Shown here: in pieces, positions 1-38,532 of the stretch
Layout of the letters: the number at the start of each line of letters is the position of its first letter
Numbering within the stretch: the first letter of the stretch is position 1
Origin: a virus
DNA: 38,532 bases
IMG/VR virus record: IMGVR_UViG_3300018412_000005
Strand: one strand, 5' to 3'
Translations under genes and position numbers: made by a program
The notes under the pieces: generated by a model
Database searches by the model: none
What the model was told of the DNA's origin: nothing
What the model saw: the letters and a program-made list of their open reading frames with translations, nothing else

Positions 1-123
1 CAGATGGTCAGGGAGAATCACCTGTTTCCACCAGCGGAGCAGAGCGAACCGGACGAGGCGAGCAACGCGGCACCGATGTACCAGGAAGCGTTGCAGATGA
101 AAAGCCGAGTGATGCAGGCCGAC
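1..123. repeat. Terminal direct repeat copy 1 (circular-closure overlap)
   Basis: Bases 1-123 match 38410-38532 base for base. The repeat lies inside an open frame, and the 38409 bp unit is divisible by 3, so the frame is kept across the junction. Confidence 0.9.
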
Positions 124-6100: not shown

Positions 6101-8558
6101 AGATGGAACCTTTGAGTTTAACGGAAAGGGGCTTAACCAGGTGTTTTGGCCGGTATCAAAACATGGCTGGAAGCGTTTTGACTTGCTTATGGATTACTTC
6201 AAGGCTCGCCGGGCCAATGAGCTTATGAAGCAGGGCCGTGAAAGGCTGTTCACAAAGCAAGAGATTGAGGCCGGTTTAAAGCTTGGTGTTACATACCCTG
6301 AGTTCCGTGATGTGTTTAAGGAATATCAGGAGTTCAACAAGCGAATGCTGGACTTCTACGAGCAGATGGGTCTGATTGATGGGAAGCAGAAGCAAGCCTT
6401 TGCTGATGCCAACAAAAACTATGTTCCATTCCACCGGGTAATAGAACGCCTTGAAGATGGTGATCAGGCTGGAACAACGTCAATCGGCAAGCGCCTAAGT
6501 GGCGGTACTCAGAACGTGCGCGACATTGCTGAAAACATTGTTGAGGGCCTTTACTCAAATATCCGGGCAGCATTGATTGCCAGGGCCAAGCAGACGCTAT
6601 ACCGGGATATTATGACTAGCCAGGATGGATCACTGTTTGCTGTTAAGTTGTCGCCAGATAGCAAGCTGGTTAAGGTCGAGCAAACTCAGATGGCAGCAAA
6701 AATTGCTGAAGCCATGGCTGATGTTGGCCTAACAGTAAGTAAAGATGGAATGATTATGGCCGGCGATCCTGATGCGCAGATCACTGATGTTGATGATATT
6801 GCCCAGGCTCTTGAGTCTAACCCTGATCTGCTTAACTTCTGGACCTTTGGGCACAAGCCAACGACAGCAGAAACATACGTTGATAGCGCCATCATTGATG
6901 GTAAGCGCACCTGGTTTGAGGTTCGCAACCCATTGCTGGTGGACATGCTAACCGGTATGAGAGGGTTCAAGTCTGGCGCGTTGCTTAATGCCATGTTCCG
7001 CGTGAAGAACCTGCAAACTCGCACTGTAACGTCAATGCTTCAGTTCCTTGGTCCAAACGCTGTGCGCGATACGCTTAGCGCCTTTGTGATCAGCAAAAAC
7101 AAGTTCATTCCGGTATGGGACACCTTGATTGGTATGGGGCACGCCATATTCCACACCAAGCTTTACCGTGAGTTTCGTTTGCATGGTGGCGGCTATGGTA
7201 CCCGTATCGAGGCAAGAACAGAGGAAACCAGAAAGCGCCGGCAGCTTGATCTGCCAAGCCGCAATATGTGGGATACCGCAGCCAAGTTTCTGGCTGGCTA
7301 TGACCGCTTTGCTAGTGCATTTGAGTATGGTAGCCGCCTTGGTGATTATCGCCGTGGCCGCCAAGCTGGAAAGAATGCACTTGAGGCTGCATGGGAGGCC
7401 AGGGAAGTTGCAACAGACTTTAGCAAGATGGGGCGCAATGAGTTGTGGGCCAAGTTCCTTCGGACAGTTCCGTTTATGAATGCCGGTATCCAGGGCCTGG
7501 ATAAAACGGCGCGAGAGATATTTGAGTTGCGCGGTGAAATGAAGGGTAGCAACCTGGCAAAACTTGATGATGCGAAGGTGCGATTCCTGGCGGCTGGTGG
7601 CGTGCTTACACTTATGACAGTGATCTTATGGTTGCTGAATGAGGATGATGACCGGTACCAGGCATTGACGCCAGACCAAAAGGCGCGCTTCTGGTGGATC
7701 TTCCTTCCTGGTGCAGAGAAGCCTCTTAAAATTCCGCGTCCATACGATATAGGGCATTTGTTCGCAACCATACCAGAAGTTAGCCTTGACTATATCAAGG
7801 AGCGTGATGGTAAAGAGGCAGCGCAGACGCTGGCGTGGACCTTTGCTAATACGCTTGGCGTTGGCGATTACCCTGGCATATTCCAGCCAATGATTGAGGT
7901 GGCAAGGAATAAGAAGTTTACCGGCTCGCCTATCGTCCCTGAAAGGTTGATGCACGTTCCTAATGAGTATCAATTCACTGATCGCACGCCGCAGCTGTAC
8001 CGCAATCTTGGTGAGGCGCTTGGTGTGTCGCCATTGGTGGCTGAGCATTACATGAAAGGCTACTTGCGTTATGTTGAGGCGTATATCTCAGATGGCAGTG
8101 AAGCCTTGCTGTGGAATGAAAAAGAGTGGGGGGCGCGTCCATTCGTTAAAGAGCCGATTGATTACTTGACCTATCAATTCCAGGGGCAGCGCGTTCCTTA
8201 TCGAACTAAATGGACTGAAGGTTATTTTGAGCTCAAGAAAAAGGCAGCCGGCGCTAAGTCTGCATTTGACCTACTGACCGCACAAGCAATACGCGATCAG
8301 CAGCCAATGAAAGACTTTTCAGCAGACAAAGTTAACCAGTTGCTTATCAGCATGGATAACGCCTTTAGACAGATTGATAGCGCATTCAAGGACCAGGAAA
8401 CGGTTCTTGCAGCAATCAAGTACAACCCGGACCTAACCAGGGATGAGAAGGAAAGGAGAATAGAAAACTGGTACCAGCAGAAGAACAATGCTCTTGCGCA
8501 GTTCTATGAACAGGCCAACAAGGCCCTGGAACAAGTTGAAAGCGCTCTTTCCCAATAG
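1..8558 (+). CDS. Giant polyvalent virion protein, C-terminal 2852 codons (continues from 36003..38409; whole ORF 3654 aa)
   Basis: Frame 3 has no stop from base 3 to the TAG at 8556-8558. The track's ATG at 243 is internal. I translated frame 3 by hand from 36003 to 38532 and from 3 to 243 and found no stop. It carries methyltransferase, SNF2 helicase and HExxH motifs (see sub-features). Confidence 0.85.
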   Translation, partial: DGQGESPVSTSGAERTGRGEQRGTDVPGSVADEKPSDAGRPVSRGDAELIQAEEKAAEEAPAPVGETTQQAVSADNRPAKMFTITPDMGIGEGGQKTKFKNNLEAIKILKSLEAEGRQATPEEQQALARYVGWGGIPQAFYGDAGKVSKGWEKEAAQLKELLTDAEYDAARRSTQDAHYTSQEIVTSIWKAVKDMGFTGGRVLEPSVGTGNFLGMMPAGVRGKSQITGVELDHITGGIASHLYPGANIKTPMGFQDFTMPDGYFDLAIGNPPFGSQKLYDGKRKDLSKFSIHNYFFAKSLDGLKPGGVLAMVVSNRLMDGQSNQAAREYMANRADFLGAVRLPNNAFLKNAGTEVTTDIVFLQKREEGTPRKGTSWKRTESVKDANGIETPLNEYFVKNPDMMLGEWGAYGSMYGPNDPALVAREGQDTGALLREALAKLPKGIMAESKAAPAKEEVKLSTSVDNVKVGSMFIDGGKVMVRQDNELGSIQAEPVEFASDKARQRVEGMIKVRDVFTDLRKAQLTEGVKDAALDALRTRLNREYDAFVKAHGPINSDANKRLFRDDPTWPQIAALEESFDKGITPAMAKKTGEQSRKPSASKAAIFFKRTQSPYKAPTKAATAKDAMAASLSEYGAIDMDYMAKLYNKTPGYIANELGDLVYEVEPGRFETRDQYLSGNVKQKLAQARQLAKVDSKYKRNVQALEAVQPEDIEAVDIDVKPGAHWLPREDMKSFVDHVLGNESGKAVYIPTNAKWSIDGVPTEAARSRWGTDRVQVTDIVAAAANQKQIVVRDRIDENTTRVNEAATNAANEKVERLKAEFRRWVWQDDARRSRLTRIYNDTFNTDRLREFDGGHLTFPGKVSDDIIKLRPHQANAVWRIVQSGTTLLDHVVGAGKTFTMIAGAMEMRRMGRAKKPMFVVPNHLVGQWAEDFTKLYPGANVLAATKKDFEKGNRKRLFARIATGDWDAVIVAHSSFGKVEMDKEFQERFINQQIRDIDEAIQNIRAQDGQKSRSIKQIEKQKERLQEKLKKLFDAENKDDNLTFGELGVDALFLDEAHEFKNLGFATSMTRVAGLGNPQGSQKAADLFMKTQFVLEKTGGNNVVFATGTPISNTMAEMYTMQRYLDYQTLQDQGIAHFDAWARMYGEVVTDWELSPSGTYKLNSRFSKFVNIPELMQRYLSFGDVINRDDINRQLAAQGKRLPVPKVKGGKPQNVVVTRSDDQAAYIGEPVTDENGRESYPEGSLVWRAEHLPKKPEKGADNMLKIMSDARKAALDMRMIDPAMYGDYEGSKVNQAADNIKRIYDQWSTDKGAQLVFIDLSTPKGAKAKEAARIRDLIEKADNGDERAQDELDKMSPDELSALDGDFSVYDDLRQKLINKGIPEQEIAFIHDANTELQKEELFGKVRSGRIRVLFGSTAKMGAGMNVQERLVALHHMDAPWRPSDLEQREGRIIRQGNKLYERDPDGFEVEINRYATKQTLDSRMWQTIETKARFIEQVRKGNTKTREIEDVGGEASNAAEMKAASSGNPLILEEMDLRQKIRKLEQLEDEHDREQFRIRDQVRRLKLRIETGKDRMLKFTRDAKQAEKAPKDFAITINSGKYDKHKEAGQALLAAANKMADAGQETKAIGEYAGFKLRLDNISGAEFVITIEGEQEYQVDIPDIAEADPTGLAMRITNTVKRISADAKNEAELIKQAERDIPDLEGQIADWSQADELAKVKARHALVIAELKPKNKDQEEIEQDGTSAMMYNAGADVPMPNWRPTYRQAGVPKRPEGDEFAIGDRTVKLKPEDQPTRREGVRVMVEDVIGPRLYQGKVKGKSKLGFYRKNNSEVRVANYDDVEVMAHEMAHYLDMHYRYNKRFTRAYKDTKYRDEVASLSYTSQKNLKFKEGFAEFVRLWLTNYAEVKAAAPLFTQRFEQVLAEDSTLNKKMVKLQDEMHRWYLQGARAQLRAKSGKELSQSQQIIQYMQSYPLERYRQEVIDKIHAAKVVERTLHGEVRDAALSPFKQFQLINGAESLHEAILKDGTPSLAEDGTFEFNGKGLNQVFWPVSKHGWKRFDLLMDYFKARRANELMKQGRERLFTKQEIEAGLKLGVTYPEFRDVFKEYQEFNKRMLDFYEQMGLIDGKQKQAFADANKNYVPFHRVIERLEDGDQAGTTSIGKRLSGGTQNVRDIAENIVEGLYSNIRAALIARAKQTLYRDIMTSQDGSLFAVKLSPDSKLVKVEQTQMAAKIAEAMADVGLTVSKDGMIMAGDPDAQITDVDDIAQALESNPDLLNFWTFGHKPTTAETYVDSAIIDGKRTWFEVRNPLLVDMLTGMRGFKSGALLNAMFRVKNLQTRTVTSMLQFLGPNAVRDTLSAFVISKNKFIPVWDTLIGMGHAIFHTKLYREFRLHGGGYGTRIEARTEETRKRRQLDLPSRNMWDTAAKFLAGYDRFASAFEYGSRLGDYRRGRQAGKNALEAAWEAREVATDFSKMGRNELWAKFLRTVPFMNAGIQGLDKTAREIFELRGEMKGSNLAKLDDAKVRFLAAGGVLTLMTVILWLLNEDDDRYQALTPDQKARFWWIFLPGAEKPLKIPRPYDIGHLFATIPEVSLDYIKERDGKEAAQTLAWTFANTLGVGDYPGIFQPMIEVARNKKFTGSPIVPERLMHVPNEYQFTDRTPQLYRNLGEALGVSPLVAEHYMKGYLRYVEAYISDGSEALLWNEKEWGARPFVKEPIDYLTYQFQGQRVPYRTKWTEGYFELKKKAAGAKSAFDLLTAQAIRDQQPMKDFSADKVNQLLISMDNAFRQIDSAFKDQETVLAAIKYNPDLTRDEKERRIENWYQQKNNALAQFYEQANKALEQVESALSQ
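285..1260 (+). other. N6-adenine DNA methyltransferase domain inside the giant ORF
   Basis: AdoMet motif VLEPSVGTGNF lies at nt 606-638 and the catalytic AIGNPPFG has NPPF at nt 810-821. Motif I precedes motif IV. The preceding LARYVGWGG segment is typical of the methylase-helicase fusions of plasmids and phages (the P1 DarB / COG4646 type, from memory). Confidence 0.75.
1600..1638. repeat. 11-bp-phased hexamer array L1 (4 units)
   Basis: ACGCGT at 1600, ACGCGT at 1611, TCGTGA at 1622 and ACGCGT at 1633. Confidence 0.8.
2600..4380 (+). other. SNF2/DEAH-box helicase domain inside the giant ORF
   Basis: Motifs seen: LRPHQ (2604), Walker A GAGKT (2676-2690), DEAH (3162-3173), ATGTPISN, RVLFGSTAKMGAGMNVQ, and motif VI QREGRIIRQG (4341-4370). 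Confidence 0.8.
5541..5555 (+). other. HExxH zinc-metallopeptidase motif (HEMAH) inside the giant ORF
   Basis: The sequence VMAHEMAHYLD is followed about 38 residues later by KEGFAEF, a possible third-ligand Glu as in gluzincins. Confidence 0.55.
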
Positions 8559-8605: not shown

Positions 8606-11600
8606 ATGGCAACAGCATTAGTGAATCCGAAGTTCCGGGCATGGAACGGAGATAAACCGCTGGCCTTCGGTAAGGTGTACACCTATGCCGCAGGTACCAA
8701 CATTCCAAAACCGACATACACCAGCGAAGATGAAACCGTTGTTAACCCGAACCCGGTCATTCTTAATGCTGAAGGCTATGCCGATATTTATCTTGATGGC
8801 AGCTACAAAGTTGTCGTTAAAGATGAGGATGACGTTGAAGTGTGGACCGCTGATCCAGTTACCGACATTACAACAGTTGGTAATGAGTGGGTGCATCCAA
8901 CGCCGGCAGAGAAGTATGACGTTAACAAGTTTAAGGTCAACGATAACCAGGTTGATCGCTTTCATCCTGGGCGCCGTGTGAAGCTTGATGATACCGGGTA
9001 TCTTTACGGCGATATTGTTCAGTCGTATTACGATGGTCAAGGTTTTACCGTTGTAGAGGTTGTTCTTGATAGTGGCAGCATGACCGCAAACTTGAATCAA
9101 GCTTACGTTGGTATTATTAGCGCGGTAAATGGAGCTCAACCGGCTAACAAATATCTTGAAAACCTACAAGGCGATCAGGGTACCGATTATATCAAGTACG
9201 CTTCAGATAAGACGTTGACTGAAAAGATTGATGAGCAGGATGCTGAAGATCAAAACCTTCAAGATCAGATTGATGTGCACACCACTGCAATTGCCGCAAA
9301 CGCTCAGGATATTGTTGATAATGAAACAGCAAACGCCCAAGAGCACGCGAATATCAATGCTGAGATTATCCAGCTTCAGGGAGCAATAACGTCTGGAAAT
9401 AAACTGACATACCGCACGCGTGCTGATTTGTTTGCTGATTTGGCACACGATGCTGACACAGTTGCAGAGGTTTACCTTGACCCAACAGCAGAATATAACG
9501 GTGTTTATCTTAAAAACGGCGCGTCAGGTACCGGCAGTTGGACAATAGCAAGTTATGACCGATACCAAGAGGCGCTTGCCAACAGCAAGAAAGGTCGATA
9601 CCTGGTGCTTGGTGAATGGTCTAAGTGTGAGCGAGTTGCAGCAAACAACTATTTGCTAAGCAATAACCGCATGTACATTTTGACCGACTCAGGGACCATA
9701 TCAATTGCAACGCAAACTGATGTGACTATCACCAATGGTCAGGTGCTTTATGTTGACCCGGTAAACGGTTCTCAGGATGGTAGCAGCGCTTACATTCCGC
9801 AAATTGCCACAATTGGCACAGGTAATTGGGCGTCAGAAGATAAGTATGTTTTGTTCTCATGTAGCAACGATATTGTTGGTGGGATTATTCCTCCAATTGC
9901 AAACATGAAATCAATAAGTGATCGCTTTGATGTAACAGAGGGACTTGCATCAAGCGGTTACGATAACAGCAGGCGCTCGCGTTACATTGTGCTTGGTGAG
10001 CCAAGCAAGCTTATCCGAAACCCAGCAGATTCTCAGGAGTTGATTGTTAGCTGGGGAGCTATTCGCATAAAAGACACAGCTTCAGGTGGGTTTAAAAAGG
10101 TGCAGCCTGTAACTGATTTGGTTGTGCCTGCTACGGCGGCTTTACTTGTGGATTTTGATGCGGCAACTGATGGGAATGGTGATTTGGTTGTCACGGTGGC
10201 TGACCCCTGGTATTCGCATTCTTCTTACGGAGATCCTACTTTATTTAACAAAATGTTCTTACTTACAAACTATTATGGAACCATAGGTGGGGCCATAAAT
10301 TTTGGTGCTGTAGGTAAGATAGATGGTTCGCGCATATCAAACATTGCCAGGTACCAGCTTCTTGGCGGTCTAACTTCTTATGGCACAGTAACAGATACCG
10401 GAAACACTGTTTCTGTAACCTATCCTGAGCTTCAGCTTTTTATAGGCTCAACAGGTCAAGTGCCGCTTGCAATAAGGTCGCAAACCAACCAGCAAATACC
10501 TATCAATGAGTGCTTGTACGTTGATCTTGATGCTGGCCCTGATGGTGACGGTAAATATACGGCACAAGTAACAAGTGGCGGTTATGTTTCGACTATTGCC
10601 AATGGTACTGGTGCTTTCGTTAAGGATGGCAAATATCCGCTGTTATTTAATGGAAGCAACTCGCTTCGCGGTGGACCTTTGCTTGAAAACTCAAGATTTA
10701 CAGAGGGCTTAGGCGGTTCAATTATTCCATGGGGCAACTGTACTATTACCTTTGATGCGTCAACTCGCACGCTTTCATGGACTGGTGATATTTACTTTCT
10801 TTACCGCGGTGGCAACAGGCTTCGCCTTAATGCTGGTTCATTTACATTCCCAGATGGTAATGATTTGCAGACATGCTATTTATCGTTGAAGGATGTAAAT
10901 GACTGGAATAATGCAACAGCTTCGCTGTGCATTAAGTCTGGTCGGTACTACACAGGAACCGACCGCTATTACGCAAACCCTGATCAAATCCCGCTTTTCT
11001 GGTATTCAGGTGGTAAATATGGGCCAATGTCGGGTTTTCCTCAGCCTGATATTGTTGGTGTTCCACAAGATGGTAATACGGCGCCAGTTGTTGTTGTTGT
11101 CTATGCTCCAACAGCTGACACTCAGCGCATGGATGTTCATATCCGTGATGATGGAAACCCTAATGGCCGTTATATTCGCTGGCGCTTTGAGCGTGTTAAC
11201 AATCCAGGCATTAACTCTGATGTGTGGCATGTTCAGAAGGCATGGGTAGTAAACAACGCGCTTAGCTCAACAATTCTTGAGGTTCTTACGGGCGGTGAAA
11301 TTGAAACGGCAATTAAAGAGTCCGGAAAGGCTGACTTTGTTGGTGGTACCGCTCATGGTGATGAAAAAACATTATCGGTAGTGTTTCACCTGGATGGTGA
11401 AGTGCTAGATCCAGCGGTTGCTGGTGTTTACCAGGGCGAGGGTTTGCGCGTCCAGCAGGTAAGTCAATGCTATGAGGAAGGTACCGGGGCTACCGTAAAC
11501 TGGTTTAAGGCATACAAGTCTTGGCAGTTCGGTCTTAATGGTGTTGAAATTACTCAGCAATCAGAGTTCGAGCGTGATGCTAACATTGACAGCTTCTATA

Positions 11601-11968
11601 ACTGTTTCCTTACTATCGCTCGAAATGAGGATGTAAACAACGAGGCAACAACGTCACAGTATGGTGCTCAATATCCTAAGTATGAGACGGTTGATCTCAT
11701 TCCAAGAAACCATGCTCGCAACTACATTGACAATGTTAAGCGCGCTATAGCTTGGGGCGGCGGCGTGTTCTATGAGGCTGAGTTTATTGAGGGATATAAC
11801 GAGCAGGATCCTGATAATACTGAGTACAGTCCATCTATTAATGAAATGTTCTTCCAGGCAGATTCGAGTGCATACAACAAAATGTACTTCCGTCAGGGGT
11901 TCACTCAGATTCGTACCGGTGCGGTTATTTTCAACAGATACCGATACAAGATAACGAGCTCACTGTAA
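8606..11968 (+). CDS. Tail fibre / tailspike protein (1120 aa)
   Basis: RBS AGGAGA lies upstream. The N-terminus (FRAWNGDKPLAFGKVYTYAAGT...NPNPVILNAEG) resembles the conserved particle-binding N-domain of many podovirus tailspikes. It is followed by a Q/D/A-rich coiled segment and four about 125-aa internal repeats. It is the last gene of the virion module. Confidence 0.75.
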   Translation: MATALVNPKFRAWNGDKPLAFGKVYTYAAGTNIPKPTYTSEDETVVNPNPVILNAEGYADIYLDGSYKVVVKDEDDVEVWTADPVTDITTVGNEWVHPTPAEKYDVNKFKVNDNQVDRFHPGRRVKLDDTGYLYGDIVQSYYDGQGFTVVEVVLDSGSMTANLNQAYVGIISAVNGAQPANKYLENLQGDQGTDYIKYASDKTLTEKIDEQDAEDQNLQDQIDVHTTAIAANAQDIVDNETANAQEHANINAEIIQLQGAITSGNKLTYRTRADLFADLAHDADTVAEVYLDPTAEYNGVYLKNGASGTGSWTIASYDRYQEALANSKKGRYLVLGEWSKCERVAANNYLLSNNRMYILTDSGTISIATQTDVTITNGQVLYVDPVNGSQDGSSAYIPQIATIGTGNWASEDKYVLFSCSNDIVGGIIPPIANMKSISDRFDVTEGLASSGYDNSRRSRYIVLGEPSKLIRNPADSQELIVSWGAIRIKDTASGGFKKVQPVTDLVVPATAALLVDFDAATDGNGDLVVTVADPWYSHSSYGDPTLFNKMFLLTNYYGTIGGAINFGAVGKIDGSRISNIARYQLLGGLTSYGTVTDTGNTVSVTYPELQLFIGSTGQVPLAIRSQTNQQIPINECLYVDLDAGPDGDGKYTAQVTSGGYVSTIANGTGAFVKDGKYPLLFNGSNSLRGGPLLENSRFTEGLGGSIIPWGNCTITFDASTRTLSWTGDIYFLYRGGNRLRLNAGSFTFPDGNDLQTCYLSLKDVNDWNNATASLCIKSGRYYTGTDRYYANPDQIPLFWYSGGKYGPMSGFPQPDIVGVPQDGNTAPVVVVVYAPTADTQRMDVHIRDDGNPNGRYIRWRFERVNNPGINSDVWHVQKAWVVNNALSSTILEVLTGGEIETAIKESGKADFVGGTAHGDEKTLSVVFHLDGEVLDPAVAGVYQGEGLRVQQVSQCYEEGTGATVNWFKAYKSWQFGLNGVEITQQSEFERDANIDSFYNCFLTIARNEDVNNEATTSQYGAQYPKYETVDLIPRNHARNYIDNVKRAIAWGGGVFYEAEFIEGYNEQDPDNTEYSPSINEMFFQADSSAYNKMYFRQGFTQIRTGAVIFNRYRYKITSSL

Positions 11969-29150: not shown

Positions 29151-29173
29151 CAGAAACTTTGGAGTATTAAGCC

Positions 29174-30433: not shown

Positions 30434-30444
30434 GATAGTTCACC

Positions 30445-30467: not shown

Positions 30468-30487
30468 ACCATTGACGGAGAAACACA

Positions 30488-30841
30488 ATGCCAGAGAACA
30501 AACCAAAGCGTATGTGGCTTTATCATCCTGAGAAGGGTGCAAAACTGTTCACCTTTGAAGATGAAGCCGACATTGACGATCTTGAACAACAAGGTTGGCG
30601 CGACTCGCCGGCAGAGTTCAAGCAGGCTGAAGAATCAAGTGATGAAGGTGGTGCAGAGCTCACAGCTGAACAGCAGGGCCTGTTAAGTGCATTCCAGGAA
30701 AATCCTGAGAGCCTTACCAAAGACGAACACGTTGAACTTGGTAAAGGTCTTGGCCTGAAGTTAATGAAAGCCTGGAAGGAAGAAACCTTGATTGCCAAGA
30801 TCCAGGAGAAGCTGAATGGCAACGACCAAGCAACTGATTGA
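30488..30841 (+). CDS. Hypothetical acidic virion-module protein (117 aa)
   Basis: This ORF lies between the coat and adaptor genes. I recognise no motif. Confidence 0.55.
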   Translation: MPENKPKRMWLYHPEKGAKLFTFEDEADIDDLEQQGWRDSPAEFKQAEESSDEGGAELTAEQQGLLSAFQENPESLTKDEHVELGKGLGLKLMKAWKEETLIAKIQEKLNGNDQATD

Positions 30842-33594: not shown

Positions 33595-33604
33595 GGAGAA
33601 CGCC

Positions 33605-33949
33605 ATGCAGGCAGTACCGATTCAAATGATTGCGCCCCAAGCGCTAACGCAAACGGCTCAAATGCTTTACCAGAGCCCGGCAAACAAGAAAACAATTATC
33701 AGCAAGGTTACTTTTGGTAATACAGCGGCACAAGCGGTAACTGTAACGGCTCATATTGTTCCAGCTGGTGGCGCACCTGATGACACAAACAAAGTGTTAC
33801 CGGCAAAGCTTCTTGATATTAATGAGTCATGGAGTGCATACAGCCTTGAAGGCATTACCATGCGATCAGGCGATATGCTCTATATGAATACTGATGCCAA
33901 TGGGGAAAACAAGGTTGCAGTGGCAGCTTCTGGCGTGGAGGTCTTTTAA
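33605..33949 (+). CDS. Hypothetical small virion-module protein (114 aa)
   Basis: It has a strong AAGGAGA RBS and a beta-rich composition. I recognise no motif. Confidence 0.55.
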   Translation: MQAVPIQMIAPQALTQTAQMLYQSPANKKTIISKVTFGNTAAQAVTVTAHIVPAGGAPDDTNKVLPAKLLDINESWSAYSLEGITMRSGDMLYMNTDANGENKVAVAASGVEVF

Positions 33950-34443
33950 TGGATGAGTTAACGCCGGCGCAGGTCCACCAGCTATTGGCAGAGCAGGTAA
34001 ACGAAAAAATAGAGGCCATGGAAGAAGTCATGCTCGATCATGAGCAGGTTGAAATGCCAGTAGAGCACCGCTTTGTAAATGGCATGTATGCACGTGAGAT
34101 AACTATTCCAAAAGGCACGCTACTTACAGGGCGCGTTCACAAGTTTGGTTATGTGGATATTATGCTTAGTGGTGATATTACAGTTGCAACGCCTGATGGT
34201 GTAAAGCGTTTAACAGGTGTGAATATCATGGAAGGCGTACCAGGTCGCAAGCGTGCTGGATATGCTCACGAAGATACGCACTGGATCACTGTACATAAAA
34301 CGGATGCCACAAGCCCTGAAGGCATTGAAGATATTTTAACGGTATTCAGCATGGCTCAATTCCGGGAGTTACCGCCTGGCGAGCGTGCAGCGCTACCAAA
34401 CGAACAGGAGAATGAGCCATGTCAGTTGTTGCAGCAGCAGTAG
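33949..34443 (+). CDS. Hypothetical cupin-like beta-barrel protein (164 aa)
   Basis: HRFVNGMYAREITIPKGTLLTGRVHKF...IMLSGDITV resembles a small phage beta-barrel family. The call is weak. Confidence 0.4.
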   Translation: MDELTPAQVHQLLAEQVNEKIEAMEEVMLDHEQVEMPVEHRFVNGMYAREITIPKGTLLTGRVHKFGYVDIMLSGDITVATPDGVKRLTGVNIMEGVPGRKRAGYAHEDTHWITVHKTDATSPEGIEDILTVFSMAQFRELPPGERAALPNEQENEPCQLLQQQ

Positions 34444-35105
34444 TTGGTAGCGCCGTTGTTGGCGCGTATTCAGCAAACAAGTCTAGCAAGGCGGCGTCAA
34501 AGGCGTCACAACAAGCAAGTGATGCTCAAGTGCAAGCTAACCGCGAAACCATTGAGTTTCAGCGAGAGGTTTTTGATCAGCAGCGTGAAGATAACGCCCC
34601 ATGGCGTGAGATTGGTACGCAGGCCCTTGGTCAGCTTCAGGCAGGTATTGCTTCAGGAGAGTTTGACCCAAGCAATTTTAAGTTTGAAGCGGATCCCGGT
34701 TATCAATTCAGGCTGCAAGAAGGTGTTAATGCGCTTGACGCTAGTGCTTCTGCGCGAGGAAAGCTTCAGTCAGGAGCTCAGCAAAAGGCGCTTACCAGAT
34801 TTGGGCAAGATTTTGCCAGCAATGAGTATGCAAATGCCTATGCTCGCAATGCAGGATCTAAGGCCATGAACTTCAACCAGCTTGCATCATTGTCAAATGT
34901 TGGACAGGTAGCAAACCAGGCAGACGCCAATGCGCGAACTAACATGGCTAACAATGTCACTCAGAGTACGATTGCAACTGGCAATGCGCTTGCTCAAAAC
35001 GCCATTAACCAGGGTAACGCACAGTCGCAGGCTTATCAGGGGTATGCCCAGGCAGCAAACCAGGGTATGCAGAACTATCTTCTTTACAGCATGATGGGAG
35101 GTTAA
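34419..35105 (+). CDS. Putative internal virion / ejection protein (228 aa)
   Basis: It has a hydrophobic N-terminus and a DPGYQFRLQEG...ASASARGKLQSG...EYANAY core that I recall as common in podovirus internal proteins. It sits in the P22 gp7/gp14 position. Confidence 0.5.
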   Translation: MSVVAAAVVGSAVVGAYSANKSSKAASKASQQASDAQVQANRETIEFQREVFDQQREDNAPWREIGTQALGQLQAGIASGEFDPSNFKFEADPGYQFRLQEGVNALDASASARGKLQSGAQQKALTRFGQDFASNEYANAYARNAGSKAMNFNQLASLSNVGQVANQADANARTNMANNVTQSTIATGNALAQNAINQGNAQSQAYQGYAQAANQGMQNYLLYSMMGG

Positions 35106-35107
35106 TC

Positions 35108-35995
35108 ATGGCTAATGCTTTTGGAATTGACTTGGGCCAGGTTTACCGGACCGCAGAGGCAGTTAAGGGTGCGCGTCAGTCTCGCGAGCAGAACGCGTTA
35201 ATGATGGACTGGAAGAAAGAGGACCGCGAGGCAGCGCGCCAGCGAGGTAACGCTCTTGCTGATTTGCGCTCAAAGGCGTCAGCTGGTGATCCTCAGGCTA
35301 TGCAGGAGCTAAACGCTTTTGACCCTGAAGAAGCTAAGAAGATGCTTGAGTCACTAAGTAAGATGGATGATCGCCAGCGCCAGCAGACACAAGAGAACAT
35401 TGATGCGATCGGAAAAATGTCAGCCTATGTTCTTCAGTCTGAAAACCCTGAGCAGGCATACGAGCTTGCCAGGCAAAGCGTATCACCAGAGCTCGCAGCA
35501 AAGATGCCTGAGCAATACGACCCTAACTTCCTTCAAATGCAGCTTGCCAGAGCTCGCCAGGTTGATGAGTTGCTACAGAACCCTGAGCGCATGACGTTTG
35601 GCACAGAGGACCGACTGTATAAGGATGGCCGCGTTATCGAACGTACAACAAGCAGTCAAGAGCTTGACCGCCAGACAAGTCGGCAAAACGCGTTAACGCG
35701 TGCCAGTGGCGATGGCGGTCTAAAGTCAGCTGATGAGTCATTGATGTATCGTCAGGCTGGTGAGTTGCTTGGTGGTTTGTTTGATCAGCAAGGCAACCTT
35801 CAAAACCTTGACCCGGCCACACGCGGCAAGGTCCAGTCTATCGCAACTGAAGCGGCTAAAATTTATAGCCAAGGTGGCGTTACTCGCTCGCAAGCTGTAA
35901 CACAAGCAGCGAGAAAGCTTGGTATTCAGGTTCAAGATTTGGGGCAAAGTGGTAATATAGACCGCAACAAATTACTTGAAATGTATTCACAGTGA
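35108..35995 (+). CDS. Putative internal virion / ejection protein (295 aa)
   Basis: It is Q/R/E-rich and helical, with a GGAGG RBS. It lies directly upstream of the giant ORF in the ejection-protein slot. Confidence 0.45.
   Translation: MANAFGIDLGQVYRTAEAVKGARQSREQNALMMDWKKEDREAARQRGNALADLRSKASAGDPQAMQELNAFDPEEAKKMLESLSKMDDRQRQQTQENIDAIGKMSAYVLQSENPEQAYELARQSVSPELAAKMPEQYDPNFLQMQLARARQVDELLQNPERMTFGTEDRLYKDGRVIERTTSSQELDRQTSRQNALTRASGDGGLKSADESLMYRQAGELLGGLFDQQGNLQNLDPATRGKVQSIATEAAKIYSQGGVTRSQAVTQAARKLGIQVQDLGQSGNIDRNKLLEMYSQ
35171..35198. repeat. 11-bp-phased hexamer array L7 (3 units)
   Basis: GCGCGT at 35171, TCGCGA at 35182 and ACGCGT at 35193. Confidence 0.75.
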
Positions 35996-36002
35996 GGCGG
36001 GG

Positions 36003-38532
36003 ATGGCAGAGAACCAACAACCTACAAAGGATCAGTTGCTAACAGCACTTGAGAAAGCACACCTTTCAGGGGATACCCAGGGCGCCAAGGAGTTGGCCGC
36101 CTGGCACAATGAGCTTTACGGACCAAAGCAAGAACCAGAGCAGCCTGGACTTATTGACCAGGCTAAGTCTTTTTTCACTTCCGATGAACAGCCTGAAATA
36201 GATGGCTTTACCGGTGCAATGCAGAAGGCACCGCAAGAATACGACAGCTTTGTGACCGCCACCGGGAAAGCTGTTCGCAATGTTCCTGAGCGTTTTCAGC
36301 AATCAGCAGCCGGGCTCATTCAGATGCTTGGCGAGGATATGGGGCAGGAACGTGAGCGCCATATCGCTATTGTTTCTAACCGTCTTGGTATTACGCCAGG
36401 CGATTACAAGTTACTGGCATGGGCAGGCAATGAAGGTCTTGTTGATCCTAAGACGCCTATTCCTGAAGCGCTTGATTACATTAAGCGCAATGTGACTGGC
36501 TCACTTAATGACCAGCAACTGAAGCAAGTTGCAGATATGGGCATTATCAACCCTGATGAGATCGCCGGCTTTGCAAAGTATTGGCGTGAAGAAACTCAGA
36601 AAACCATGGAGCCGGTAAACGCTGAGCCTGGAAGTGCCGCTTATTACGGTAGTGCAGCCATTGGTAGTGTTGCTGAAATGGGGCCTGCATTGCTTGGCAG
36701 TATTCTTACTCGCAATCCAAGTGTAGGTATGCGCCTAATGGCCGGCCAGGTAGGTGGTCAATCTTATGCTGAAGGTCGCGAGCAAGGATTATCGCCTGAT
36801 GAGGCTCAATTCTACGCAGTAGCCAATGCTGCAGCAGAAGCAATCCCTGAGTATATTCCGCTTAGTGTGATTATGAAGCCAGGCCAGAACTTCTTTAAGC
36901 GCGTGCTTAAAGGTGCCTTGGCAGAATCAGCCCAGGAAGTGCTAACCGAGGCCATTCAAACCGGGCTTGATCAGCAGATGATTAACCCGGATATGACTTG
37001 GGCAGAAGCGCGCCAGCGCCTAATTGATGCCGGTATTATCGGTGGTCTTGCTGGTCCAATGATGAGCGGTGTTGCTCATCCAGTCGTTAAGGCACAAGAG
37101 AAGATTGACCAGGCACTTAACGCGCCAGAGCGCCAGCTTGGTATTGCTCTTAATCAGCAGGTTGAGGCAACTCAGTTTGCACCGGCAGAGCAGGCAGCAG
37201 CGCAGGCTTTTGATCCTGCAAATGCACAGCAGCAACAGCAGCCAGCACAGCGTAAGAGCATGGCAGAACTTGTTGCTGAAAAGCTTGAGCAGCGCGGAGT
37301 TAAGCCGGCTCCAGTGGTTGACTACGCACCGAAGCAGCAAGCAATGCCTGAGAATATTGATGTGCCGCTTGAGGTACCTACTCAGGAAGTGGTTGTTGAA
37401 GAACAAGCTAAGGAGCAGGTCAAAGATGAGCCCAAGCAAGAAGCGCCAACTGAAGAACAAGCGAAAGATGAAGCACAACCAACGGATGCGGCGCCAGTCT
37501 ATGGCGAAGGCGTTGAGAGAGTTCAGCACACAACCAAGCGTGGAAAGGAATTAACTGGCGTCATTGATCGTGAAATGACGCTGGATCAAGCCAAAGAGAT
37601 TGACCCTTATGCCTTCAAAAAGGATGGGGGTGTTTTCATTCGTGATAACCGCATTCAGGAGTACAACCAGAATCGGAGTGAAGAAAATGCAAGAGTGGAT
37701 ACAGCAGGCGTTGAACGACAAGGTGATCAGCAGCAGCGAAGCCAAGAGCCTGGACGAGTACCTGAGCCAGCACAGCAACAGCAGCAACCTAGTGATATTG
37801 CCTCAGAGCCTGGAAAGCGCGGCTCAGAGAATATTCCTGTGGCAGACACCGCAGAGCGAATTGACGATGCACTGACACCTAAAGCTGAGTGGCGAAACGA
37901 TTTAATGAAGGCGCGAGATTATGCCAACAAGTTGCGCCAAGCAGGAAAGCTTGATGGTGATGCGGCTCGCCAAGTGTGGAATGACGCGGAAGCGTTAACC
38001 AATTTAATTGACTATGCCACTTTGACGCCAGAGCAGCGCCAGGTGCGCAGAGATATTGAAGGGCGTATTAACAATGTTGCCAGTGAACCAGGTGCGGAAA
38101 ACCGACAGTCAAAGGGTATGGCCGCTCAGCGAGTCATTGAGCGATCTGATTTACCAGAGTCGCAAAAGCAAAAGCTACTTACCGATTTACAAGCAGCCTG
38201 GCAACCAGAGCAAGCACAGGAGCAAACCAATGAACCTACAGAATTGGATCAGCCAAGCCAAGAAGCACTGGCAGGAGTTCCAGCCGAGCAAGTACCAGGC
38301 GCTGAAGAAACAGGGGGCGCTGGACTTAGCCCTGAAGCAAGCGGCAGAGCAGACGCTGGCCGAGGTGAGCGAATTGGAGAGCCAGGGGTATCAACCGGAC
38401 GAGGCGTTTCAGATGGTCAGGGAGAATCACCTGTTTCCACCAGCGGAGCAGAGCGAACCGGACGAGGCGAGCAACGCGGCACCGATGTACCAGGAAGCGT
38501 TGCAGATGAAAAGCCGAGTGATGCAGGCCGAC
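36003..38532 (+). CDS. Giant polyvalent virion protein, N-terminal part (runs off the window end; continues at base 124)
   Basis: The ATG at 36003 lies 5 nt after a GAGG RBS. My hand translation of frame 3 shows no stop to 38532. It has Gly/Ala-rich hydrophobic segments (AAYYGSAAIGSVAEMGPALLGSIL, LIDAGIIGGLAGPMMSGV), then Q/E/P-rich linkers separating small folded islands. Confidence 0.8.
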   Translation, partial: MAENQQPTKDQLLTALEKAHLSGDTQGAKELAAWHNELYGPKQEPEQPGLIDQAKSFFTSDEQPEIDGFTGAMQKAPQEYDSFVTATGKAVRNVPERFQQSAAGLIQMLGEDMGQERERHIAIVSNRLGITPGDYKLLAWAGNEGLVDPKTPIPEALDYIKRNVTGSLNDQQLKQVADMGIINPDEIAGFAKYWREETQKTMEPVNAEPGSAAYYGSAAIGSVAEMGPALLGSILTRNPSVGMRLMAGQVGGQSYAEGREQGLSPDEAQFYAVANAAAEAIPEYIPLSVIMKPGQNFFKRVLKGALAESAQEVLTEAIQTGLDQQMINPDMTWAEARQRLIDAGIIGGLAGPMMSGVAHPVVKAQEKIDQALNAPERQLGIALNQQVEATQFAPAEQAAAQAFDPANAQQQQQPAQRKSMAELVAEKLEQRGVKPAPVVDYAPKQQAMPENIDVPLEVPTQEVVVEEQAKEQVKDEPKQEAPTEEQAKDEAQPTDAAPVYGEGVERVQHTTKRGKELTGVIDREMTLDQAKEIDPYAFKKDGGVFIRDNRIQEYNQNRSEENARVDTAGVERQGDQQQRSQEPGRVPEPAQQQQQPSDIASEPGKRGSENIPVADTAERIDDALTPKAEWRNDLMKARDYANKLRQAGKLDGDAARQVWNDAEALTNLIDYATLTPEQRQVRRDIEGRINNVASEPGAENRQSKGMAAQRVIERSDLPESQKQKLLTDLQAAWQPEQAQEQTNEPTELDQPSQEALAGVPAEQVPGAEETGGAGLSPEASGRADAGRGERIGEPGVSTGRGVSDGQGESPVSTSGAERTGRGEQRGTDVPGSVADEKPSDAGR
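38410..38532. repeat. Terminal direct repeat copy 2 (circular-closure overlap)
   Basis: It is identical to bases 1-123. Confidence 0.9.

What the first reader, a model, noticed from the sequence alone, without database searches (positions are those of the whole stretch)
36003..38532. One 3654-codon ORF crosses the circular junction and fills the P22 ejection-protein slot
The track reports 243..8558, but frame 3 is open from the ATG at 36003 (GAGG RBS) to the window end and from base 3 onward. The 123-nt overlap joins the two parts in frame. The real gene is 10,965 nt, 28.5 percent of the genome, and encodes about 400 kDa.

Gene order matches P22: terS, terL, portal, scaffold, coat, gp4-like, gp10-like, tail-tip proteins, small internal proteins, this gene, then the tailspike. 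That places the gene where gp20/gp16 ejection proteins sit. The N-terminal 400 residues have Gly/Ala-rich hydrophobic segments like channel-forming internal proteins.

A virion-delivered giant enzyme recalls the N4 virion RNA polymerase in concept, but the enzymes here are different.
Basis: partly seen in the sequence, partly recalled or inferred. Interest (0 to 1): 0.8.

Follow-up and report, generated by a model that had tools for sequence, protein, structure and literature searches.

The report
Giant injected anti-restriction protein gene
The window is a complete P22-like Vibrio phage genome cut open inside one real 3,654-codon gene, which encodes a known kind of giant, probably virion-delivered multi-enzyme protein and is 94% identical to a gene already annotated in Vibrio phage VvAW1.

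Summary
Bases 1-123 repeat 38410-38532 exactly. Once joined, the ATG at 36003 opens a single ORF of 3,654 codons (10,965 nt, 408 kDa, 28.5% of a 38,409-bp genome).

It is not new. Gp01 of Vibrio phage VvAW1 (3,640 aa, annotated 'DarB-like antirestriction') aligns end to end at 93.7% identity, and VvAW1 DNA runs ungapped through the junction.

The protein is a phage-type polyvalent protein with three parts:
- an N-terminal all-alpha module (aa ~41-493);
- a C-terminal ~1,090-aa module with an invariant HExxH...E motif and LPD38;
- between them, a ~1,900-aa insert carrying a DarB-type adenine methylase and SNF2 helicase.

Relatives hold the two end modules alone (1,620-1,774 aa) in the same slot. 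That slot follows a P22 gp7-like gene and a 295-aa gene and precedes the tail fibre.

The protein has no cysteine, like P22 gp7/20/16, T7 gp15/16 and N4 vRNAP.

Published work found a more distant LPD38-bearing giant (phi24B) and DarB-dyad giants (JC1) in virions. It also found PTXU04 gp25, which has both end modules, essential.

The ejection-slot reading is therefore supported by inference. Packaging was not shown for this phage. Interest is modest.

The parts
35994..35997 (+). GAGG ribosome-binding site, 5 nt before the ATG and overlapping the TGA (35993-35995) of the preceding 295-aa gene
   Evidence: Read directly from the sequence. The layout suggests translational coupling, which is an inference.
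36003..38409 (+). 5' part of the giant ORF: codons 1-802 plus the first base of codon 803
38410..38532 (.). Terminal duplicate of bases 1-123, left by circularisation or circular permutation in the assembly
   Evidence: Exact 123-nt identity. VvAW1 is circularly permuted and terminally redundant.
1..8558 (+). 3' part of the giant ORF: the rest of codon 803 through codon 3654, with the stop at 8556-8558
36123..37481 (+). N-module (aa ~41-493): an all-alpha module with two Gly/Ala-rich, moderately hydrophobic segments (aa 218-236 and 340-362). It is the conserved N-terminal head of giant phage proteins.
   Evidence: About 31% identity to the giants of Vibrio phages 1.183.O and 1.211.A. Matches phrog_10691. 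The profile finds 1,760 representative clusters, nearly all with the module near the N-terminus of 1,600-5,358-aa proteins. The AF2 model is all-helix with pLDDT 61.
37482..37877 (+). aa 494-625: acidic/Gln-rich linker plus a small conserved domain (aa ~500-560). Shared with the closest cargo-less relative P0009.
   Evidence: P0009 aligns to aa 1-625 at 53% identity. dN/dS is 0.15.
37878..38409 (+). First part of the hypervariable linker (aa 626-802), at the point where the cargo insert begins
   Evidence: 37874-38216 cannot be aligned to VvAW1 DNA. For aa 626-883, dN/dS is 0.79 with nine in-frame indels. Similarity to P0009 ends at aa 625.
1..242 (+). Second part of the linker (aa 803-883): Gly/Glu/Arg-rich low-complexity sequence leading into the methylase module
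243..5213 (+). Main part of the cargo (the insert begins at aa ~626): DarB-type N6-adenine methyltransferase plus SNF2/SF2 helicase dyad (aa 884-2540). MTase motifs: EPSVGTGNF at aa 1007 and NPPF at aa 1073 (nt 810-821). Helicase motifs: GAGKT aa 1695, DEAH aa 1857, TGTP aa 1909, QREGRIIR aa 2250.
   Evidence: Pfam Eco57I, ResIII, SNF2-rel and Helicase_C. phrog_10089 'DarB-like antirestriction' at E=0. Motif positions. 61-63% identity to the PEp14/Pavtok giants and ~35% to Bcep22-type giants. P1 DarB matches at 24-31% in three patches.
5274..8555 (+). C-module (aa 2561-3654), the conserved C-terminal end module of phage polyvalent proteins
   Evidence: About 37% identity to the giants of BA3, 1.183.O and 1.211.A. 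41 metagenomic homologues. AF2 pLDDT 80, pTM 0.71. 64 BFVD structural matches, mostly the last pieces of viral proteins that BFVD stores in parts.
5541..5690 (+). Zincin-type motif: HEMAH (aa 2650-2654) and EGFAEF (aa 2694-2699)
   Evidence: H, E, H and two E are invariant in 30 sequences down to 21% identity. Weak Foldseek hits to zincin-like folds.
7584..7640 (+). Hydrophobic helix FLAAGGVLTLMTVILWLLN (aa 3331-3349), followed by a conserved N-x-D-D cap
   Evidence: Kyte-Doolittle 1.97 here. The position is conserved, but hydrophobicity ranges 0.2-2.0 across the family. A membrane-spanning role is therefore uncertain.
7647..8147 (+). LPD38 domain (PF18857)
   Evidence: E=1e-39 in the 2,771-aa query and 4e-40 in the C-terminal fragment. 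Described as restricted to phage-type polyvalent proteins.
34419..35105 (+). 228-aa P22 gp7-like ejection protein, first gene of the triad. No cysteine.
   Evidence: phrog_598 'DNA ejection' at E=1.5e-57. Homologues precede the giant in BA3 and L007; L006 also has one, but there the giant gene lies in inverted orientation. Cys count.
35108..35995 (+). 295-aa protein in the gp20 position, second gene of the triad. No cysteine.
   Evidence: phrog_36852. Only faint similarity to the P22 gp20 N-terminus (BLAST E=0.11; phrog_28221 E=0.8). Conserved next to the giant in BA3 and L007; L006 also has a homologue, but there the giant gene is inverted.
8606..11968 (+). 1,120-aa tail fibre/spike gene that follows the giant. 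The late transcription unit ends at the hairpin 11974-11991.
   Evidence: Weak tail-fibre PHROG hits. It is the only strong terminator-like site downstream of the giant (nothing comparable in the scanned 22000-38532 and 1-12500 stretches).

Best explanation
This is one real late gene, the orthologue of VvAW1 gp01. It encodes a phage-type polyvalent protein.

**Architecture (shown)**
- Two conserved end modules are present: an all-alpha N-module (aa ~41-493) and a ~1,090-aa C-module (aa 2561-3654) with an invariant HExxH...E zincin motif and LPD38.
- In related phages these two modules alone form a 1,620-1,774-aa protein in the same slot.
- At aa ~626 a ~1,900-aa insert has been added. It consists of a fast-evolving linker followed by a DarB-type N6-adenine methyltransferase and SNF2 helicase dyad with all catalytic motifs intact.

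**Mechanism (inferred)**
1. A few copies are packaged in the T=7 P22-like head, together with the gp7-like and 295-aa proteins.
2. On infection the cysteine-free, linker-separated chain is threaded through the portal and tail ahead of the DNA, as proposed for N4 vRNAP.
3. The end modules provide the essential entry or ejectosome function of the third (gp16-position) ejection protein.
4. The methylase-helicase insert reaches the cytoplasm with the DNA and protects it in cis from type I restriction, as P1 DarB does.
5. The zincin domain may cut the chain into working pieces.
For: **Gene reality and orthology**
-.

**End modules with a variable middle**
- Only aa 41-493 and 2561-3654 are shared with the giants of 1.183.O and 1.211.A. 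BA3 shares the C-module, with only a weak profile hit to the N-module.
- P0009 (1,774 aa) and P0033 (1,620 aa) have both ends with almost no middle.
- P0009 sits in the identical slot: gp10-like, 143, 114, 258, 298, giant, tailspike.
- In the 33 relatives with both modules, and this protein, the middle ranges from 107 to 3,441 aa. The N-module starts at a median of residue 73, and the C-module ends a median of 4 residues from the terminus.

**Mobile cargo**
- aa 742-2541 is 61% identical to PEp14 gp27 residues 1567-3341. The ends of that protein are different: SLT, LPD37 and LPD39.

**Catalytic motifs**
- The methylase and helicase motifs are intact.
- The HExxH...E motif is invariant in 30 sequences.

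**Position**
- The gene is third in a gp7-like / 295-aa / giant triad inside one late unit.

**Cysteine avoidance**
- The giant has 0 Cys in 3,654 aa, against 0.89% in the rest of the proteome (P~7e-15).
- 146 N-module proteins contain 55 Cys in 351,553 aa.
- P22 gp7/20/16, T7 gp15/16, N4 gp50/51 and PEp14 gp27 all have 0 Cys.

**Experiments on relatives**
- phi24B's LPD38-bearing giant is abundant in virions and absent from the cryo-EM shell. It matches the C-module at E=2e-41.
- JC1 gp69 was identified in virions with 51 unique peptides.
- PTXU04 gp25, with both modules, gives a large loss of plating efficiency (EOP) when knocked down.
- P1 DarB is a head component that protects DNA in cis against type I enzymes.
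Against: - No virion proteomics exists for this phage or for VvAW1.
- No sequence or structural similarity to P22 gp16/gp20, T7 gp15/gp16 or the N4 vRNAP C-terminus was detected. No significant PDB match was found for either end module.
- The N-module model has low confidence.
- The putative membrane helix is not uniformly hydrophobic across the family.
- P1 DarB itself is only distantly related (24-31% in patches) and is not cysteine-free (9 Cys). Transfer of its function to this protein is by architecture only.
- PTXU04 gp25 and phi24B gp47 are distant relatives (about 28% identity, or half of the C-module).
- Proteolytic processing is pure inference.
- The VvAW1 paper reports a 35-40 nm head. 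If accurate, that would leave no room for this protein. The figure is hard to reconcile with a 38.7-kb genome and a P22-type coat, so it is probably an underestimate.
Confidence: 0.7

Rival explanations
1. The protein is a purely accessory injected anti-defence effector, like P1 DarB. It would be dispensable for entry as such. The real channel-forming ejection proteins would be the small neighbours (the 164-, 228- and 295-aa proteins).
For: - The only functionally studied homologue of the enzymatic part, P1 DarB, is non-essential and acts only against restriction.
- Iyer et al. interpret polyvalent proteins as conflict effectors.
- There is no homology to gp16 or gp20.
Against: - Versions without any insert keep the two end modules (1,620-1,774 aa) in the same slot. 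The conserved part is therefore not the anti-restriction enzyme.
- PTXU04 gp25 is needed for plating on a laboratory E. coli strain.
- No other gene in the 38.4-kb genome is large enough to play the gp15/gp16 role.
- The end modules are under strong purifying selection.
Confidence: 0.17
2. The protein is not packaged at all. It would be a cytoplasmic late enzyme that methylates or remodels progeny DNA before packaging, and its place in the structural operon would be incidental.
For: - It carries an intact adenine methylase and an intact helicase.
- VvAW1's authors annotated it simply as a DNA methylase.
- No proteomic data exist for this clade.
Against: - Total cysteine avoidance, which it shares with proteins known to be ejected, would have no explanation for a cytoplasmic enzyme.
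- LPD38 proteins and DarB-dyad giants have been found in virions.
- In relatives the same slot holds proteins with quite different enzymes, or none.
- P0042 places a lytic transglycosylase domain in front of the N-module, which points to passage through the cell wall.
Confidence: 0.07
3. The long ORF is an artefact. Either two separate genes were fused by wrong circularisation of the contig, or the 123-nt repeat is a physical terminal repeat that splits the gene in virion DNA.
For: - The join lies in a low-complexity, fast-evolving linker.
- The gene track called only 243-8558.
Against: - VvAW1, sequenced independently by Sanger reads with PCR closure, has the same uninterrupted gene. Its DNA aligns ungapped across the join.
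- VvAW1 is circularly permuted.
- The similarity to PEp14 gp27 starts at aa 742 and continues across the join at aa 803.
Confidence: 0.02

Closest known systems
Vibrio phage VvAW1 gp01 (YP_007518343; GenBank 'DNA methylase', RefSeq 'DarB-like antirestriction')
   Same: Orthologue. It shows 93.7% identity over the full length, has the same neighbours and the same P22-like 38.7-kb genome at 89-95% nt identity.
   Different: It is 14 aa shorter. The linker at aa 626-883 is largely replaced (dN/dS 0.79 with indels). The adjacent tail fibre gene is unrelated. The published paper hardly discusses the gene.
LPD38-bearing giants of other podophages: Thalassomonas BA3_0002, Vibrio 1.183.O and 1.211.A, E. 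coli PTXU04 gp25, Stx phage phi24B gp47
   Same: Same C-terminal module, full length in BA3 and the Vibrio phages. PTXU04 matches C-module positions ~220-940, and phi24B matches the C-terminal half at E=2e-41. Same N-module in 1.183.O, 1.211.A and PTXU04. Same slot after a gp7-like gene and a ~290-aa gene. All are cysteine-free except phi24B, which has 2 Cys. phi24B gp47 is in virions, and PTXU04 gp25 is essential.
   Different: Their middle parts differ: a small class-I methyltransferase in BA3 and the Nahant Vibrio phages, and LPD5, LPD1 and MuF-C in phi24B. None of them carries the DarB-type methylase-helicase dyad.
DarB-like giants of the Bcep22, JC1, Ralstonia and PEp14/Pavtok/Parlo podophages
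   Same: They carry the same methylase-helicase dyad: 61-63% identity to the PEp14 group and ~35% to the Bcep22 group. They are giant (3,764-4,914 aa), sit at the end of the virion module, and PEp14 gp27 (the one counted) is cysteine-free. JC1 gp69 was shown in virions.
   Different: The ends are unrelated, with SLT at the N-terminus and LPD37 and LPD39 after the dyad. There is no LPD38 and at most a marginal N-module hit (E=0.004). The phage backbones are 58-64 kb.
Phage P1 DarB
   Same: Same order of N6-adenine methylase followed by an SF2 helicase. It is a head-internal protein, and it is the experimental basis for the in-cis anti-type-I-restriction role.
   Different: Only 24-31% identity, in three patches. 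It is 2,255 aa with no N-module or C-module, has 9 cysteines, comes from a myovirus, and depends on DarA, Hdf, DdrA and Ulx. Homologues of those partners were not searched for here.
Coliphage N4 virion RNA polymerase gp50
   Same: A giant (3,500 aa) cysteine-free enzyme encoded just after two small ejection proteins (gp52, gp51), packaged and ejected. Loosely connected domains are proposed to let it thread through a ~35 A channel. It carries a zincin-type HExxH region.
   Different: The enzyme is different, and none of the vRNAP Pfam domains found in N4 gp50 was reported for this protein. Profile comparison of the C-module with the N4 C-terminal 1,400 aa is not significant (probability 0.8%), although it lines up the HExxH...E motifs.
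P22 gp16/gp20 and T7 gp15/gp16 ejection proteins
   Same: Same position in the late operon after the gp7/gp14-like gene. Mostly helical and cysteine-free.
   Different: No detectable sequence similarity. They are three to six times smaller and carry no methylase or helicase.

Membership tests
Orthologue of VvAW1 gp01 | Collinear full-length similarity in the same genomic context | tested here: met
   One BLASTP segment, 1-3654 vs 1-3640, at 93.7% identity. The flanking genes are conserved.
Phage-type polyvalent proteins (Iyer et al. 2017) | Several unrelated enzymatic or effector domains in one polypeptide | tested here: met
   N6-adenine methylase, SNF2/SF2 helicase, HExxH zincin motif and LPD38.
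Phage-type polyvalent proteins (Iyer et al. 2017) | Encoded among late or packaging genes of a portal-terminase phage | tested here: met
   terS, terL, portal, scaffold, coat, gp4-like, gp10-like, gp7-like, then the giant, then the tail fibre.
Phage-type polyvalent proteins (Iyer et al. 2017) | Presence of a family-specific LPD domain (LPD38, phage-only) | tested here: met
   PF18857 at E=1e-39, against a curated cut-off of 27 bits (137 bits observed). Its phage-only distribution is described.
Phage-type polyvalent proteins (Iyer et al. 2017) | Delivered into the cell together with the DNA | not testable with these tools
   Only indirect evidence: cysteine avoidance and virion proteomics of relatives.
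DarB family (P1 DarB type) | EcoKI/TaqI-like adenine methylase followed by an SF2/SNF2 helicase in one chain | tested here: met
   Pfam Eco57I then ResIII/SNF2/Helicase_C. phrog_10089 at E=0. P1 DarB aligns in the same order at 24-31% identity. The LPD36 domain that precedes the methylase in this family did not appear among the Pfam hits.
DarB family (P1 DarB type) | Protects incoming DNA in cis against type I restriction | not testable with these tools
   Needs plating on hosts with and without type I systems.
DarB family (P1 DarB type) | Incorporation depends on partner proteins DarA, Hdf, DdrA and Ulx | not tested
   No search for these partners was run. None appeared among the family hits for the 30 other window ORFs scanned.
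P22 gp16 / gp20 ejection protein families (phrog_770, phrog_917) | Sequence homology to gp16 or gp20 | tested here: not met
   BLASTP E>=2. No PHROG hit even at E<=5. The N- and C-module HMMs give E>=0.2.
P22 gp16 / gp20 ejection protein families (phrog_770, phrog_917) | Position after the gp7/gp14-like gene, as the largest gene of the ejection operon | tested here: met
N4-type virion RNA polymerase | T7-like single-subunit RNAP domains | tested here: not met
   N4 gp50 hits four vRNAP Pfam families. The giant hits none of them.
Zincin-like metallopeptidase of polyvalent proteins (MPTase) | HExxH helix plus a downstream Glu-bearing helix on a zincin fold | tested here: inconclusive
   The motif is invariant in 30 sequences. 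However, there was no Pfam MPTase hit, and Foldseek matches to zincin folds are only sub-threshold: 6cz6 with probability 0.8, plus 1j7n and 4qhi.

The most novel reading that the evidence does not exclude
The N-module plus the LPD38-containing C-module may be a single-chain equivalent of the second and third podophage ejection proteins. On this reading the pair doubles as a general delivery vehicle: effector cargo of 0.1-3.4 thousand residues is swapped in and out at one fixed, hypervariable hinge (aa ~626 here).

A further possibility is that near-absolute cysteine avoidance (0.016% over 351,553 residues) is a general, sequence-only signature of proteins that must thread through the podophage tail channel and the oxidising periplasm. 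That signature would allow ejected proteins to be predicted from sequence alone.
Probability: 0.3. Interest if true: 0.6.

Novelty: new member of a known kind. Interest (0 to 1): 0.3.

Why it matters
For this window, the result corrects a gene call (243-8558 becomes 36003 through the junction to 8558) and shows that the contig is a complete, circularly closed genome.

More broadly, 28.5% of a small phage genome is spent on one protein that most likely enters the cell with the DNA. This clade offers matched natural variants of that protein: no insert, a small methylase, or a full DarB-type methylase-helicase. Such variants make a convenient system for asking how very large proteins are packaged and threaded through a podophage tail, and what each insert contributes against host defences.

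The cysteine-free signature, if general, is a cheap predictor of ejected proteins in metagenomic phages.

None of this changes the fact that the gene and its class are already in the databases and the literature.

Tried and rejected
1. Sequence search of the whole protein against PDB chains found nothing at E<=0.01, and only chance hits for the N-terminal 802 aa.
2. Foldseek of both AF2 models against PDB found no match at E<=0.001. The N-module model is too poor (pLDDT 61) for the negative result to mean much.
3. Homology to P22 gp16/gp20 was tested by BLASTP, by PHROG at a relaxed E-value, and with home-built HMMs. All were negative. T7 gp15/gp16 were tested with the HMMs only, also negative. 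The 295-aa neighbour shows only faint similarity to the gp20 N-terminus (E=0.1-0.8), which I do not count.
4. Profile comparison of the C-module with the N4 vRNAP C-terminal 1,400 aa gave a probability of 0.8%. I rejected it as homology, although the HExxH...E motifs align.
5. The word-indexed search with the N-terminal 625 aa returned a single hit, probably because the Gln/Glu-rich linkers filled the candidate list. The exhaustive profile search was needed.
6. NCBIfam gave only sub-threshold partial hits to defence-system methylases and helicases (MADS2, DrmD), far below their cut-offs. These are shared domains, not membership.
7. I considered calling aa 3331-3349 a transmembrane helix and rejected it as unproven. 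Hydrophobicity at that position falls to 0.2-1.0 in many relatives.
8. Promoter and terminator scans inside the gene found no more sites than shuffled sequence does. There is thus no evidence for an internal transcription unit starting near 243.


Full report
**1. The observation**

- The first 123 bases of the window are identical to the last 123, so the unit genome is 38,409 bp.
- The ATG at 36003 is preceded by GAGG at 35994-35997. That GAGG overlaps the TGA of the upstream 295-aa gene.
- The frame is closed upstream at 35958 and open to the window end. Frame 3 is also open from base 3.
- Joining the ends gives one ORF of 3,654 codons that ends at 8558. It is 10,965 nt, 408.3 kDa and 28.5% of the genome.
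- The ORF tool lists only 243-8558 because it does not report ORFs that run off an end.

**2. The join is real**

- The nearest database relative is Vibrio phage VvAW1, a 38,682-bp phage of V. vulnificus.
- Its gene 1 (19-10941, minus strand, 3,640 aa) is annotated 'DNA methylase' in GenBank and 'DarB-like antirestriction' in RefSeq.
- It aligns with the joined ORF in a single segment from first to last residue at 93.7% identity. VvAW1 DNA aligns without gaps through the junction.
- VvAW1 was closed by PCR. [quoted passage not shown] The 123-nt repeat is therefore best read as a mark of a circularly closed assembly, not a physical end.
- Against VvAW1, dN/dS is 0.005-0.04 in every folded part at pS ~0.45. 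The exception is aa 626-883, where it is 0.79 with nine in-frame indels.
- That segment (nt 37874-38216) is one of the few stretches of the genome that does not align with VvAW1 at all. The tail fibre gene is another.

**3. What the protein is made of**

| Region (aa) | Content | Evidence |
|---|---|---|
| ~1061-1140 | Eco57I-type adenine methylase | Pfam, |
| ~1669-1863 | ResIII/SNF2 | Pfam, |
| ~2181-2259 | Helicase_C | Pfam, |
| 3352-3518 | LPD38, E=1e-39 | Pfam, |
| first 883 | no Pfam hit | |

- PHROGs gives 'DarB-like antirestriction' (phrog_10089) at E=0 for the enzymatic part. For the N-terminus it gives phrog_10691, a family of giant proteins of unknown function.
- The catalytic motifs are intact: EPSVGTGNF, NPPF, GAGKT, DEAH, TGTP and QREGRIIR.
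- Iyer et al. (PMC5512222) describe exactly this class. Polyvalent proteins of phages and conjugative elements carry a methylase-SF2 helicase dyad typified by P1 DarB. Zincin peptidases are the commonest hub domain. LPD38 is found only in the phage type.

**4. Two constant ends with a variable middle**

- The same slot in every relative examined holds a giant gene: 2,706 aa in Vibrio phage 1.183.O, 2,715 aa in 1.211.A and 2,631 aa in Thalassomonas phage BA3.
- BLASTP shows that only two parts are shared. These are aa ~41-493 (31% identity; in BA3 only a weak profile hit) and aa 2561-3654 (37% identity). The 2,000 residues between them are not shared.
- Those relatives instead carry a small class-I methyltransferase just before the C-module.
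- A search with the C-module found 41 metagenomic proteins. Their other Pfam domains vary, and SNF2 and Helicase_C are among them.
- Two of these proteins have almost no middle:
  - P0033 (1,620 aa) matches aa 3-489 and then aa 2559-3654.
  - P0009 (1,774 aa) matches aa 1-625 at 53% identity and aa 2561-3654 at 61%.
- P0009 lies in the identical slot: gp10-like, 143, 114, 258, 298, [1,774], tailspike.
- The window's protein is thus the P0009-type protein with a ~1,935-aa insertion at aa ~626. That is precisely where similarity to VvAW1 DNA breaks down.
- The insert itself (aa 742-2541) is 61% identical to the middle of Erwinia phage PEp14 gp27 (4,914 aa). The ends of that protein are unrelated: SLT, LPD37 and LPD39.
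- The dyad is therefore a mobile module shared between different carrier proteins.
- P1 DarB matches at only 24-31% identity, in three patches.

**5. The two end modules**

C-module:
- HExxH (aa 2650-2654) and two Glu of EGFAEF (aa 2694, 2698) are invariant in 30 sequences down to 21% identity.
- With that alignment, AlphaFold2 gives a confident model (pLDDT 80, pTM 0.71).
- The model has no significant PDB match. There are only sub-threshold hits to zincin-like folds.
- It does have 64 matches at E<=0.001 in the viral structure library. Most are the last pieces of viral proteins that the library stores in parts, including those of PTXU04 and BA3 and proteins carrying RelA/SpoT, lytic transglycosylase or methylase domains.
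- Among sequenced phages, tblastn finds the module in 52 records. These are Vibrio, Shewanella, Thalassomonas, Pelagibacter, Bacillus, cyanobacterial, Aeromonas, Achromobacter and E. coli phages.

N-module:
- The model is all-helical and of low confidence, and it has no PDB match.
- An exhaustive profile search finds it in 1,760 representative clusters, 227 of them at E<=1e-30. Almost always it lies within the first few hundred residues of proteins of 1,600-5,358 aa.
- In the 33 relatives that have both modules, and in this protein, the N-module starts at a median of residue 73. The C-module ends a median of 4 residues from the C-terminus. The middle ranges continuously from 107 to 3,441 aa, and this protein's middle is 2,130 aa.
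- One fragment, P0042, has a lytic transglycosylase domain in front of the N-module.

**6. The slot**

- The late region is P22-like by homology. BLASTP against P22 gives portal 3e-36, coat 3e-8, scaffold 8e-6, gp4 0.007 and gp10 0.003. PHROG gives Ad3 and Hc3.
- The 228-aa protein at 34419-35105 belongs to phrog_598 'DNA ejection', the same label P22 gp7 carries in its RefSeq record (E=1.5e-57).
- The 295-aa protein that follows it has only faint similarity to the gp20 N-terminus.
- The giant has no detectable similarity to gp16 or gp20.
- According to the review of podophage ejection proteins (PMC8954989), these genes form an operon of a ~200-aa gp14-like gene, a gp15-like gene and a larger gp16-like gene. 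In P22 these are gp7, gp20 and gp16.
- The window's triad of 228 aa, 295 aa and the giant has that order. It is conserved in BA3 and L007, and the two small genes also have homologues in L006, where the giant gene is inverted.
- PTXU04 has genes of 228, 284 and 2,197 aa in the same arrangement.
- The only strong terminator-like site after the giant is the hairpin at 11974-11991 after the tail fibre gene, and the scanned late region upstream (22000-38532) shows nothing comparable.

**7. Cysteine avoidance**

- The giant has no cysteine in 3,654 residues. The other 31 ORFs of the window contain 74 in 8,336 aa (0.89%). About 32 would be expected, so P~7e-15.

| Protein(s) | Cys count |
|---|---|
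| VvAW1 gp01, the 1.183.O, 1.211.A and BA3 giants, PEp14 gp27 | 0 |
| The 228-aa and 295-aa neighbours | 0 |
| P22 gp7, gp20, gp16 | 0 |
| P22 coat, portal, tailspike, terminase, gp14 | 1-8 each |
| T7 gp15 and gp16 | 0 |
| N4 vRNAP (3,500 aa) and gp51 | 0 |
| P1 DarB (myovirus) | 9 |

- Across 146 N-module proteins there are 55 Cys in 351,553 residues (0.016%), and 116 of the proteins have none.
- I read this as the composition expected of chains that must pass unfolded through a narrow channel and an oxidising periplasm. That reading is an inference.
- I found no statement of this pattern in the ejection-protein review, where 'cysteine' occurs zero times.

**8. Experimental evidence from relatives**

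- phi24B, a Stx podophage: a 2026 preprint reports that its 2,811-aa protein with LPD5, LPD1, LPD38 and a MuF-C peptidase is abundant in virions by proteomics but invisible in the cryo-EM map. The authors propose that it is an ejection protein.
  - I fetched that gene (2,807 aa as deposited, 2 Cys). The C-module HMM matches its last 600 residues at E=2e-41.
- JC1, a Bcep22-like podophage: the 4,515-aa DarB-like gp69 was identified in virions with 51 unique peptides.
- PTXU04: the 2,198-aa 'putative polyvalent protein' gp25 is a fitness-essential gene by CRISPRi-ART, with a large loss of plating efficiency.
  - It carries both the N-module and the C-module.

**9. Best explanation and its limits**

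Shown here:
- one real gene, orthologous to VvAW1 gp01;
- polyvalent-protein membership;
- two constant end modules with a variable middle;
- the slot;
- the cysteine-free composition.

Inferred:
- packaging in the head;
- ejection ahead of the DNA;
- an essential entry role for the end modules;
- protection of the incoming DNA from type I restriction by the methylase-helicase insert, by analogy with P1 DarB;
- possible self-cleavage by the zincin.

On capacity, P22 injects about 12, 12 and 30 copies of gp7, gp16 and gp20 (abstract of PMC8402733). From my own arithmetic on the protein sizes, that is roughly 2.5 MDa. A few copies of a 408-kDa protein would fit in a similar head.

The 35-40 nm head reported for VvAW1 would not hold even the DNA. 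I treat that measurement as unreliable.

**10. Comparison and novelty**

- The gene is a close orthologue of an annotated gene.
- Its class has been described (Iyer 2017; the Bcep22, JC1 and Parlo reports).
- The idea that an LPD38-bearing giant is an ejection protein has been published for phi24B.
- This analysis adds three modest points: the explicit end-modules-plus-insert dissection in this clade, with insert-free forms in the same slot; the fixed hypervariable hinge; and the family-wide absence of cysteine.
- I classify the finding as a new member of a known kind, with interest 0.3.

Noticed in passing
window 36003-38409 + 1-8558; also L001, L002, L003, L005, L008, L010, L011: Near-total cysteine avoidance. 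The giant has 0 Cys in 3,654 aa, against 0.89% in the rest of the proteome. 146 N-module proteins have 55 Cys in 351,553 aa. P22 gp7/20/16, T7 gp15/16, N4 gp50/51 and PEp14 gp27 also have 0, whereas P1 DarB has 9. This may be a general sequence signature of podophage-ejected proteins.
   Followed up: partly
window 18858-19043 (+): A 61-aa CsrA homologue (PF02599, E=3e-19). CsrA homologues also occur in other phages that carry giant polyvalent proteins: JC1, where one peptide was seen in virions, and PTXU04 gp28, where knockdown reduced plaque size. The reason for this co-occurrence is unexplained.
   Followed up: partly
window 8576-11969: The tail fibre/spike gene (1,120 aa) has no nucleotide similarity to the VvAW1 tail fibre (788 aa), although the genes on both sides are 89-90% identical. 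This looks like a receptor-binding cassette swap, so the host range probably differs.
   Followed up: partly
window 37874-38216 (giant aa 625-739): A hypervariable hinge inside the giant. It does not align with VvAW1 DNA, and dN/dS is 0.79 with nine in-frame indels over aa 626-883. It sits exactly where insert-free relatives (P0009) stop aligning, which suggests a recombination hot spot for cargo exchange.
   Followed up: partly
window 11974-11991: A perfect GC-rich hairpin (AAGGCCC-TTCG-GGGCCTT) lies between the convergent tail fibre gene and the leftward gene cluster. The scan lists it on both strands, but a clear T run follows it only on the minus strand, so it may end only the leftward unit or both.
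   Followed up: no
L006 10001-14863 (Logan SRR14597290 contig): In this P22-coat phage the insert-free 1,620-aa giant gene is inverted, together with two downstream genes, so that it faces the structural operon instead of continuing it. The slot is therefore not strictly fixed.
   Followed up: no
P0042 (536-aa fragment, JGI contig of 2,976 bp): An SLT lytic transglycosylase domain sits directly upstream of the N-module. This resembles the arrangement in T7 gp16 and PEp14 gp27, and is consistent with passage through the cell wall.
   Followed up: partly
L005 5036-5380 and 8141-8473; L014 3044-3367, 5519-5899 and 6250-6621: The database records of BA3 and phi24B annotate small 'hypothetical protein' ORFs inside their giant genes (same strand in BA3, opposite strand in phi24B). 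These are almost certainly spurious calls inside a long ORF.
   Followed up: no
window 1-123 / 38410-38532: The overlap length of 123 nt would fit an assembler's k-1 overlap (for example k=124). This is a guess from memory, not a test. The VvAW1 paper also reports a 35-40 nm capsid, which is too small for a 38.7-kb genome with a P22-type coat protein.
   Followed up: no
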